A DNA stretch of 15,032 bases from a virus. Taxonomy: Duplodnaviria > Heunggongvirae > Uroviricota > Caudoviricetes. The stretch lies in IMG/VR virus record IMGVR_UViG_2529293240_000016. One strand, written 5' to 3'. A model generated the notes under the pieces. It was given only the letters and a program-made list of their open reading frames with translations, did no database searches and had not been told where the DNA came from. Below are positions 118 to 755 of the stretch, in pieces. A program made the position numbers and the translations under genes. Numbering within the stretch: the stretch's first letter is position 1; each line of letters starts with the position of its first letter.

Positions 118-619
118 CTTTCTGAACAGATAACCCGCTGCGCCGTTTGTGTGTGTGATCCCAAACATAAGCACGGGGATGATAGCCGCTATCAGGCTGG
201 TGGGCAATGCAATCAGTCTGGTTCAGTGCGTTGCCATAACTGCGAAGTTCTCTCCTTTGATGAGTATTCTTTAAGGTACTTCTCAAGGGCAAAAGAACAC
301 GGCGCGAATCGTTCTGATTCATGCTCTTTCTTTCTGCGTCGTCTTTTTCGTGCAGGTGATGTTTTTTCGGTTGATTCTTCGTTGGTCATTGTGTGCGCCT
401 GTAAAGCAATGCGCCGTAGTACCTCACACCACGGCGCTGATAGTTTTTATCCTTTGGGTTCTATGCCGCGTTGCTGTAATTCTTTGCGGATTATTCGCTT
501 TATCCAGGCAGCAAGAGAATCATCGCCGTCCTGTTGTTGTGCCTTTTCCATCTTTTCCCGTAAGTCAGGATCTAAACGGAACTGGAACGGAGGATTACCA
601 CGCCTTTCGTTTTTGTGTG

Positions 620-647
620 TTGACACGTTAATTACACCTCATGTAAT
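620..647 (+). promoter_or_regulatory. Sigma70-like promoter (P4 PLE analogue) for the small-ORF/primase operon
   Basis: TTGACA at 620-625, 16-bp spacer, TGTAAT at 642-647; lies about 110 bp upstream of the first operon ORF. Confidence 0.45.
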
Positions 648-654
648 GTATTTA

Positions 655-675
655 TGTGTAATGACACATTACACA
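655..675. promoter_or_regulatory. Palindromic operator-like site at the predicted transcript start
   Basis: Perfect 9-bp inverted repeat TGTGTAATG-aca-CATTACACA directly downstream of the -10; GTAATG also occurs at 643-648. Confidence 0.4.
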
Positions 676-755
676 CAATCAACACAAAAAGCAAAGCCCC
701 GCACTGTAGGAGCAGTAACGGGGCTTCTAACCAACAACGTAAACTAGGAGCCGTT

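What the first reader, a model, noticed from the sequence alone, without database searches (positions are those of the whole stretch)
617..755. Promoter, perfect palindromic operator and long leader hairpin upstream of the kil-like operon
A near-consensus promoter (TTGACA-16-TGTAAT) is followed at the predicted start by the palindrome TGTGTAATG-aca-CATTACACA, then by a long hairpin (AAGCCCCG-c-ACTG-taggag-CAGT-aa-CGGGGCTT, 694-726). TAGGAGC occurs both in the hairpin loop (706-712) and as the SD of the first ORF (744-750), and TAACGG (714-719) is complementary to CCGTTA (750-755) beside the start codon. This suggests repressor control plus alternative RNA folding around the ribosome-binding site, reminiscent of the RNA-based immunity of P4.
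Basis: partly seen in the sequence, partly recalled or inferred. Interest (0 to 1): 0.5.

Follow-up and report, generated by a model that had tools for sequence, protein, structure and literature searches.

The report
Repressed promoter facing an antisense RNA
This is the on/off control region of a phage satellite's early genes: a strong promoter with a repressor binding site, and a hairpin that most likely ends a small, undescribed antisense RNA covering the ribosome site of a cell-division inhibitor gene.

Summary
The window is an Sp7/EcCIEDL933-type capsid-forming PICI next to phoQ. The promoter (TTGACA-16-TGTAAT), the palindrome 655-675 and the hairpin 694-726 are all present. The palindrome is best read as the operator of the Arc-like repressor encoded divergently at 447-626. 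About 17 related elements keep this layout but each has its own repeated operator sequence.

The "leader hairpin" is not selected on the sense strand. Across 22 distinct variants it is 97.9% paired on the minus strand, with 45 G·U cells. On the plus strand it is 82.5% paired, with 1 G·U cell. The minus-strand fold is more stable in 35 of 36 variants. A U-rich tract follows the hairpin on the minus strand.

All 70 unique relatives have a -10-like hexamer inside icd codons 5-7, 35-38 nt upstream on the minus strand. Together these predict a cis-antisense RNA of about 76 nt (window ~762→686). It has the anti-Shine-Dalgarno sequence in a 5' stem-loop, and the hairpin is its terminator. The architecture matches P22 sar, but the RNA matches neither the sar nor the C4/CI model in Rfam.

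The TAGGAGC repeat and the TAACGG/CCGTTA pairing are not conserved. No transcript data were available, so the RNA is predicted, not observed.

The parts
447..626 (-). Arc-like ribbon-helix-helix repressor gene (59 aa, GTG start overlapping the -35 of the rightward promoter)
   Evidence: It matches PHROG 228 'Arc-like repressor' at E = 2.1e-6. There are weaker matches to NCBIfam YlcI/YnfO and to the RHH protein ArtA. PGAP calls the same ORF in relatives. Substitutions fall mainly on its third codon positions, with 38 synonymous against 24 non-synonymous changes.
620..647 (+). Rightward promoter of the icd-like/replication operon: -35 TTGACA (620-625), 16-nt spacer, -10 TGTAAT (642-647). The start is predicted near 654-657.
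   Evidence: It is the only such match in the window, against 0.02 expected. TTGAC(A/G) is retained at this position in about 17 operator types. Relatives L165 and L179 have TATAAT here.
627..650 (.). Upstream operator copy: half-sites AATTACAC (630-637) and ATGTAATG (641-648) in the promoter spacer and -10
   Evidence: TGTAATGT at 642-649 is complementary to 666-673 (I14). Relatives all place one copy of their own motif directly after the -35.
652..678 (.). Main palindromic operator (perfect core TGTGTAATG-aca-CATTACACA, 655-675) over the predicted transcription start
   Evidence: I3. The motif travels together with the Arc-like gene, including on a BREX plasmid.
686..762 (-). Predicted cis-antisense small RNA of about 76 nt, fully complementary to the icd leader, Shine-Dalgarno sequence and start codon. 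Its ends are inferred, not mapped.
   Evidence: The evidence is the promoter at a fixed distance, a two-stem-loop fold, and strand-specific wobble pairs.
694..726 (-).
   Evidence: On the minus strand 97.9% of cells are paired, 4 pairs show double changes, and 0 of 500 shuffles reach the observed score. RNAalifold predicts the same 13 pairs. G·U cells number 45 on minus and 1 on plus. The consensus scan lists it as terminator-like on the minus strand.
683..693 (-). U-rich tract after the hairpin on the minus strand (UUUGCUUUUUGUG, counting the last two stem bases)
   Evidence: Every hairpin variant keeps a U-rich run here although the sequence itself changes.
729..761 (-). Stem-loop 1 of the antisense RNA. 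The 5' arm (752-761) is complementary to the start-codon region. The 3' arm (729-739) is the conserved GU-rich stretch. The anti-SD CUCCUA lies in the loop.
   Evidence: Of 195 pairs, 34 are G·U on the minus strand. The minus-strand fold is -8 to -14 kcal/mol, against -4 to -6 for the sense copy.
769..797 (-). Predicted antisense promoter inside icd codons 5-14: -35 TTGTGT (797-792), 17-nt spacer, -10 TATGAT (774-769)
   Evidence: It is the only minus-strand candidate in 560-860. A -10-like hexamer lies 35-38 nt upstream of the GU-rich stretch in all 70 unique relatives. Type B elements lack a -35 but have an extended -10, TGGTATGAT or TGGTATAAT.
745..750 (+). Shine-Dalgarno sequence TAGGAG of the icd-like ORF
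   Evidence: It lies 5 nt before the ATG at 756.
756..956 (+). Icd-like (host cell-division inhibitor-like) ORF of 66 aa, the first gene of the rightward operon
   Evidence: It matches NCBIfam NF033153 at E = 6e-18 and several PHROG families.

Best explanation
Window 617-800 is the switch region of a capsid-forming PICI satellite, and it has two layers.

Layer 1 is transcriptional. A strong sigma-70 promoter (620-647) fires rightward into the icd-like/replication operon. It is shut off by the Arc-like repressor encoded divergently at 447-626. That repressor binds the palindrome over the start site (655-675) and a second copy in the promoter spacer.

Layer 2 is post-transcriptional. A promoter embedded in icd codons 5-14 (TTGTGT-17-TATGAT, 797→769) fires leftward. 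It makes a small RNA of about 76 nt that ends at the hairpin 726→694 and its U-rich tail. So the 'leader hairpin' is the terminator of this antisense RNA.

The RNA is perfectly complementary to the icd leader from about +32 through the Shine-Dalgarno sequence and the AUG. It carries the anti-SD in the loop of a 5' stem-loop. Pairing should block ribosome binding, and possibly trigger duplex cleavage. That would silence leaky expression of the toxic Icd-like protein and, through polarity, of the genes behind it.

Shown here: the sequence elements, the strand on which the structures are selected, their conservation, and the family assignments. Inferred: that the RNA is made, where its ends lie, that the repressor binds the palindrome, and the regulatory outcome.
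For: Context:
- The element has a primase, major capsid, prohead protease, portal and large terminase next to phoQ, like Sakai Sp7.

First ORF:
- It is Icd-like.

Repressor and operator:
- The divergent gene is Arc-like.
- About 17 operator types share the same two-site layout around a TTGAC(A/G) -35.

Strand of the hairpin:
- The minus-strand fold is more stable in 35 of 36 variants, by 6 kcal/mol on average.
- On the minus strand 97.9% of cells are paired, 4 pairs change on both sides, and 0 of 500 shuffles reach the observed score.
- There are 45 G·U cells on minus against 1 on plus, and 82.5% pairing on plus.
- RNAalifold independently returns the same helix.
- The terminator scan lists it on the minus strand.

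Antisense promoter:
- It is the only minus-strand candidate nearby.
- The -10 sits at a fixed 35-38 nt distance in all 70 unique relatives, including one locus (L015, found in two contigs) with an unrelated downstream gene.
- Lineages have either a -35 or an extended -10.
- icd genes preceded by C4 (L003, L008) lack the Asn-His codons that form the -10.

Stem-loop 1:
- It is formed in every type, with 34 of 195 pairs being G·U on minus only.

Known precedent:
- The annotated P22 record shows the same layout: mnt, then divergent promoters with operators, then arc and ant. Psar lies inside the first codons of ant, and the 70-nt sar ends at a terminator upstream.
Against: - No transcript evidence was available. 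The Hfq-crosslinking catalogue of Sakai small RNAs lists nothing in Sp7, so the RNA is not Hfq-bound, is weakly expressed, or does not exist.
- The -35 is weak (3 of 6 matches).
- The -10 coincides with conserved Asn-His codons, so part of its conservation could be protein-level.
- The relatives are closely related Escherichia elements, so the counts are not independent events.
- The U-tract is interrupted by G and C.
- The sense mRNA also forms the hairpin (-19.7 against -21.8 kcal/mol in this window), so a sense-strand role is not excluded.
- No canonical promoter was found for the Arc-like gene. Its expression may depend on read-through of this terminator, which would change the logic of the switch.
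Confidence: 0.62

Rival explanations
1. First reader's model. The hairpin is part of the sense leader, and the mRNA switches between two folds. In one the hairpin forms. In the other TAACGG pairs with CCGTTA and occludes the ribosome site. This would be a cis-acting riboregulator, or a P4 CI-like processed RNA.
For: The sense leader folds better than all shuffles (z = -3.4). In this window 716-729 can pair with 745-756, giving 6 + 6 bp with a 2-nt bulge (read). Relatives do use a sense-strand RNA (C4) before icd.
Against: Wobble asymmetry is 45:1 in favour of the minus strand, and the plus-strand helix carries A·C mismatches in many variants. TAACGG is lost in L001- and L122-type hairpins while CCGTTA stays. 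Type B elements have a different SD region and no CCGTTA. There is no C4 match.
Confidence: 0.08
2. The hairpin is only an insulating terminator. It stops stray leftward transcription from the operon's antisense strand before it reaches the promoter and repressor region. No dedicated regulatory RNA exists.
For: It is a minus-strand hairpin with a U-rich tail. No small RNA was reported in Sp7 by Hfq crosslinking.
Against: A -10 hexamer sits at a fixed distance in all 70 variants. A second minus-strand-specific stem-loop carries the anti-SD. The GU-rich arm is conserved across elements whose icd 5' ends differ. These features suggest a defined transcript under selection.
Confidence: 0.17
3. The leftward transcript is the long 5' leader of the Arc-like repressor mRNA, and the hairpin is an attenuator that sets repressor levels. 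Convergent transcription, rather than base pairing, provides the control.
For: No other minus-strand promoter was found between 560 and 860, and the repressor's start codon abuts the rightward -35. The terminator's U-tract is imperfect.
Against: Most other operator types have their own TATACT promoter for the divergent gene yet keep the hairpin module. The long perfect helix predicts efficient termination.
Confidence: 0.1
4. The conserved palindromic DNA acts at the DNA level, for example as a protein binding site or cruciform, and not as RNA.
For: It lies in a regulatory intergenic region full of protein binding sites.
Against: Stem sequences change freely while pairing is kept. The asymmetry of G·U against A·C only makes sense for a single-stranded RNA of one polarity.
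Confidence: 0.03

Closest known systems
P22 immI region (mnt / Pant-Pmnt operators / arc / ant, with sar antisense RNA, Rfam RF00262)
   Same: A ribbon-helix-helix repressor is transcribed divergently from a strong promoter, with palindromic operators over the promoter. An antisense RNA of about 70 nt has its promoter inside the first codons of the controlled gene. It ends at an intrinsic terminator in the upstream non-coding stretch and covers the ribosome site (annotated record; PMC2629481). The terminator stems even look alike: GAAGCCCUG-ACUG...CAGU-UGGGGCUUC in sar against GAAGCCCCG-UU-ACUG...CAGU-G-CGGGGCUUU here.
   Different: The window does not match the sar model at E <= 10, while P22 scores 97.8 bits. 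My own model reaches the sar terminator only at 16.6 bits, E about 0.05, a level that occurred twice by chance in 1.8 Mb. The target here is an Icd-like gene heading a satellite replication operon, not an antirepressor. There is no arc gene between the promoter and the target.
P1/P7 immI (c4 RNA - icd - ant) and P4 CI RNA; Rfam C4 (RF01695) with isrK (RF01394)
   Same: A small RNA controls translation of an icd gene at the head of an operon. Relatives of this very element carry isrK + C4 in front of an icd copy (L001, L003, L008).
   Different: C4/CI is encoded on the sense strand, is cut out of the leader and acts through loop-target complementarity. Here the structure is selected on the antisense strand, the RNA is cis-encoded and fully complementary, and no C4 match exists in the window.
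Type I toxin-antitoxin pairs with cis-antisense RNAs (for example hok/sok)
   Same: A short constitutive antisense RNA overlaps the translation initiation region of a small growth-inhibiting protein.
   Different: There is no Rfam Sok or other type I match. The target gene heads a long operon under a repressor. No mok-like coupled reading frame or fold-back mRNA was seen. Toxicity of this Icd-like protein is assumed from its family name only.

Membership tests
sar antisense RNA (Rfam RF00262) | Matches the family covariance model | tested here: not met
   There was no sar match in window 400-1400 at E <= 10 or at the gathering score. The positive control, P22, scored 97.8 bits.
sar antisense RNA (Rfam RF00262) | Cis-antisense RNA with its promoter in the 5' coding part of the target gene and its terminator upstream of the ribosome site | tested here: inconclusive
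   The strand of the structure and the terminator are met. The promoter is predicted and positionally conserved. No transcript data were available.
sar antisense RNA (Rfam RF00262) | Sequence homology of the terminator stem-loop | tested here: inconclusive
   Model R1 hits the sar terminator at 16.6 bits, E = 0.055. Two unrelated hits of 16.2 bits appeared in 1.8 Mb.
C4 / P4 CI antisense RNA (Rfam RF01695) | Matches the family covariance model | tested here: not met
   Searches gave no match. The positive controls L001, L003 and L008 scored 71-78 bits.
C4 / P4 CI antisense RNA (Rfam RF01695) | Encoded on the sense strand of the leader | tested here: not met
   There are 45 G·U cells on minus against 1 on plus, and the minus fold is more stable in 35 of 36 variants.
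C4 / P4 CI antisense RNA (Rfam RF01695) | Loop sequences complementary to repeated target sites, one at the ribosome site | tested here: not met
   On the sense strand the loop TAGGAG is identical to the SD, not complementary to it. The identity is also lost in relatives.
Arc/Mnt-type ribbon-helix-helix repressors | Protein belongs to the family | tested here: met
   It matches PHROG 228 'Arc-like repressor' at E = 2.1e-6. Support is weak from NCBIfam and from the PDB protein ArtA. There was no Pfam match.
Arc/Mnt-type ribbon-helix-helix repressors | Binds a palindromic operator overlapping its target promoter | not testable with these tools
   Only positional evidence is available. The palindrome lies at +1 with a second copy in the spacer. 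The motif and the gene move together, including onto plasmid L206.
Icd-like host cell-division inhibitor (NCBIfam NF033153) | Matches the family model above its cut-off | tested here: met
   It scores 64.6 bits against a cut-off of 25, E = 6e-18. The function itself was not tested.
Rho-independent terminator | GC-rich stem-loop followed by a U-rich tract on the transcribed strand | tested here: met
   On the minus strand there is a 14-bp stem followed by UUUGCUUUUUG. All variants keep U-richness. On the plus strand CTAACCAAC follows the hairpin, with no U-tract.
Capsid-forming PICI (EcCIEDL933 / Sakai Sp7 type) | Satellite with primase, its own capsid, protease, portal and terminase genes, no tail genes, at a fixed chromosomal site | tested here: met
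   The gene order and the phoQ-adjacent site are the same as in Sp7. The family is described in bioRxiv 10.1101/2022.09.08.507074. Mobility was not tested, and the primase is split by IS1.

The most novel reading that the evidence does not exclude
Escherichia PICIs and cf-PICIs, thought to be governed only by the activator AlpA, may carry a second, unrecognised immunity module. It would consist of an allelic series of small divergent repressors, each with its own operator set (at least 17 types), joined to a conserved sar-like antisense RNA that clamps translation of the Icd-like first gene. Convergent promoters about 108 bp apart would make this a bistable switch that decides satellite induction. 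The cassette would be portable, since it also sits in front of a BREX defence operon on a plasmid.
Probability: 0.2. Interest if true: 0.7.

Novelty: new member of a known kind. Interest (0 to 1): 0.45.

Why it matters
[quoted passage not shown] Later cf-PICI and PICI papers mention only AlpA.

This region gives a concrete, testable candidate for the missing negative control. It is a repressor-operator pair with many specificity types, plus an antisense RNA over the first gene's ribosome site. The module occurs in roughly a quarter of complete E. coli genomes (1287 of 5426 have a match to 600-960).

The analysis also shows that a leader hairpin should not be assigned to the sense strand by default. 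G·U against A·C asymmetry across relatives settles the strand without any experiment.

Tried and rejected
- Rfam search of the whole window at gathering score, and of 400-1400 at E <= 10, found only chance-level hits: rnk_pseudo, RsaJ and a CRISPR repeat.
- The search for a known named small RNA found nothing.
  - Esr41 lies on SpLE1, not on this element.
  - None of the EcOnc RNAs lies in Sp7.
  - The Pas small RNAs are unrelated.
  - A literal search for the conserved 13-mer in full texts found nothing relevant.
- A megablast/blastn search of the phage collection with 600-960 gave no match.
- The genome-contig scan with the Icd alignment returned only 5 loci. The IMG/VR scans were much more productive.
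- A coding reading of the leader was rejected. The in-frame ATG at 654 extends icd to 100 aa, but the ATG sits at the predicted transcript start, has no SD, and hairpin length changes break the frame in relatives.
- The idea that ORF 1-747 is a real gene containing the control region was rejected. It shares third-codon positions with the Arc-like gene on the other strand and is less well conserved at the protein level.
- The GU-rich stretch as a free GcvB-like seed for trans targets was considered unlikely. It is paired in stem-loop 1 in every type.
- MAFFT could not align stem-loop 1 across types, so its pairs were counted per sequence instead.

Full report
**What is in the sequence**

Reading 601-760 confirms four features:
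- TTGACA at 620-625, a 16-nt spacer, and TGTAAT at 642-647.
- The perfect palindrome TGTGTAATG-aca-CATTACACA at 655-675.
- The hairpin AAGCCCCG-c-ACTG-taggag-CAGT-aa-CGGGGCTT at 694-726.
- An ATG at 756.

The promoter pattern occurs once in the window, against 0.02 expected. The palindrome extends to 12-nt arms.

TAGGAGC is at 707-713 and 745-751. TAACGG is at 716-721. CCGTTA is at 751-756.

TGTAAT has G at the critical -11 position. Close relatives carry TATAAT at the same spot, so the assignment is reasonable. TAATGT at an 18-nt spacing is an alternative.

**Context**

The window is a capsid-forming PICI of the Sakai Sp7 / EcCIEDL933 type, integrated beside phoQ.
- The first rightward ORF (756-956) is Icd-like (NF033153, E = 6e-18).
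- It is followed by small ORFs, a DUF4222 gene, and a D5/P4-type primase split by IS1.
- After these come the major capsid, prohead protease, portal, connector, HNH and large terminase genes, and then phoQ.
- On the other strand, 447-626 encodes a 59-aa Arc-like ribbon-helix-helix protein (PHROG 228, E = 2e-6). PGAP annotates the same ORF in relatives.
- ORF 1-747 on the plus strand shares third-codon positions with that gene and is less well conserved as a protein. It looks like a shadow ORF.

**Promoter and operator**

Relatives were collected in three ways: from complete E. coli genomes, by a pattern scan of IMG/VR, and by an Icd protein search.

They fall into about 17 promoter/operator types. 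Every type has a TTGAC(A/G)-like -35. One copy of a type-specific motif follows directly, and a second copy lies near +1. In this window the two sites are 627-650 and 652-678.

The window's motif always travels with the Arc-like gene. This includes a plasmid where the cassette precedes a WYL-BREX operon.

Binding itself is inferred.

**The hairpin belongs to the other strand**

blastn showed that the 46 nt from 694 to 739 are about 95% identical in elements whose flanks no longer align. In each case the segment lies between a divergent small gene and an icd-like gene.

At least 36 distinct hairpin variants exist. The minus-strand RNA fold is more stable in 35 of them, by 6 kcal/mol on average.

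On an alignment of 22 distinct sequences (A2), the helix gave these results:

| Measure | Minus strand | Plus strand |
|---|---|---|
| Cells paired | 97.9% | 82.5% |
| G·U cells | 45 | 1 |

- Four pairs change on both sides, and 0 of 500 shuffles reach the observed covariation.
- Slid controls fall to 40-56% paired.
- The plus-strand figures use the same columns read as the complement.
- RNAalifold predicts the same 13 pairs.

On the minus strand every variant is followed by a U-rich run. The terminator scan lists the site on that strand. On the plus strand the hairpin is followed by CTAACCAACAACG, which is not a terminator tail.

**An antisense promoter and a second stem-loop**

The only minus-strand promoter candidate between 560 and 860 is TTGTGT (797-792), 17 nt, TATGAT (774-769). 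It lies inside icd codons 5-14.
- In all 70 unique relatives a -10-like hexamer lies 35-38 nt upstream of the conserved GU-rich stretch. The hexamers seen are TATGAT, TATAAT, TATGCT and TAGAAT. This holds even at one locus (L015) whose downstream gene is unrelated.
- Type A elements have the TTGTGT -35. Type B elements lack a -35 but have an extended -10, TGGTATGAT or TGGTATAAT.
- The A at -11 is the third base of the His/Tyr codon, and it is T on the coding strand in every lineage.
- icd copies preceded by C4 lack these codons.

Starting about 7 nt after the -10, the predicted RNA (window ~762→686, about 76 nt) folds into two stem-loops in every type.
- In stem-loop 1 the 5' end pairs with the conserved GU-rich stretch. 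In this window the 5' end is the complement of the start-codon region.
- The anti-SD (CUCC or CCUC) is apical in most types.
- Stem-loop 2 is the terminator.
- In stem-loop 1, 34 of 195 pairs are G·U. The sense copy is 3-9 kcal/mol weaker.

This explains why CTAACCAMCAACG is conserved.

**What is not conserved**

The TAGGAGC identity between loop and SD disappears in relatives. L001-type loops are CTGGGAA, and type B SD regions are GAGG. The TAACGG/CCGTTA complementarity is lost wherever the hairpin sequence differs. The alternative-folding model therefore has no comparative support.

**Comparison with known systems**

Rfam finds no family in the window at the gathering score. At E <= 10 there is no C4 or sar match. 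Both models work on positive controls:
- C4 and isrK are found in relatives L001, L003 and L008.
- sar is found in P22 at 97.8 bits.

The annotated P22 immI record shows the same design. It has mnt, divergent promoters with Arc and Mnt operators, then arc and ant. Psar lies inside the first codons of ant, and the 70-nt sar ends at a terminator just upstream (PMC2629481).

The two terminators look alike in both the outer stem and the inner ACUG/CAGU stem. A model built from A2 finds the sar terminator at 16.6 bits, E = 0.055. Two unrelated hits of 16.2 bits occurred in 1.8 Mb. Homology is therefore possible but not shown.

Some relatives stack both RNA systems. L003 keeps this module and 25 codons of icd, fused to an isrK-C4-icd cassette.

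**Literature**

The RNA is not among the Hfq-bound EcOnc RNAs of Sakai, and none of those maps to Sp7. It is not Esr41 and not a Pas RNA.

PICI papers describe only AlpA-dependent activation. [quoted passage not shown]

**Verdict**

The repressor-operator reading is well supported by comparison.

The hairpin is best explained as the terminator of an undescribed sar-like cis-antisense RNA that covers the icd ribosome site (confidence about 0.6). The weakest point is the lack of any transcript evidence.

The main rivals are:
- a pure insulating terminator;
- a leader or attenuator of the repressor mRNA;

This is a new member of a known kind of control. Interest is moderate, and higher for people working on satellites.

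Noticed in passing
window 4450-4680: There are about ten copies of GGTAGA(C/T)A in both orientations in the gap after the primase/D5 ORF. These are probably the satellite's replication-origin iterons.
   Followed up: partly
window 2817-3584: An IS1 element (transposase at 2832-3335, minus strand) splits the primase gene into 1918-2838 and 3571-4443. This copy of the satellite is probably replication-defective.
   Followed up: partly
window 1-747 (+): This 248-aa ORF defines the window start and runs through the promoter and hairpin. It shares third-codon positions with the Arc-like gene on the other strand and looks like a shadow ORF. PGAP labels the equivalent stretch an 'Icd-like' pseudogene in relatives.
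   Followed up: partly
window 791-811 (+): A terminator-like hairpin, CACACAAA-cggcc-TTTGTGTG followed by GCGTTTTCTG, lies inside the icd ORF on the sense strand. It overlaps the -35 of the predicted antisense promoter. Whether it attenuates the operon is unknown.
   Followed up: no
L001 7003-7090; L003 5877-6062; L008 1247-1435: Relatives carry Rfam C4, and in L003 and L008 also isrK, in front of a second icd copy. PGAP annotates these RNA genes as parts of 'Icd-like' or 'ash family' proteins.
   Followed up: partly
L206 (plasmid pCUVET19-1426.1) 2848-3250: The same Arc-like gene, operator, antisense-RNA module and an icd-like stub sit directly upstream of a WYL (BrxR-like) gene and a BREX operon. 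The cassette may have been reused to control a defence system.
   Followed up: partly
L006 2115-2175 and 2985-3047; L056; L090: Some elements contain two copies of the hairpin module about 750-870 bp apart. These look like tandem or remnant regulatory cassettes.
   Followed up: no
window 96-120: A GC-rich hairpin GCGGC...GCCGC is flanked by an A-run on the left and CTTTCT on the right. It probably terminates the leftward repressor operon (213-626), and perhaps also the upstream alpA transcript.
   Followed up: no
window 213-389 (-): The second leftward ORF (58 aa, PHROG 21027, E = 3e-12) shows no clear codon-position bias in substitutions (20 synonymous, 53 non-synonymous). It may be fast-evolving or not coding.
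   Followed up: partly
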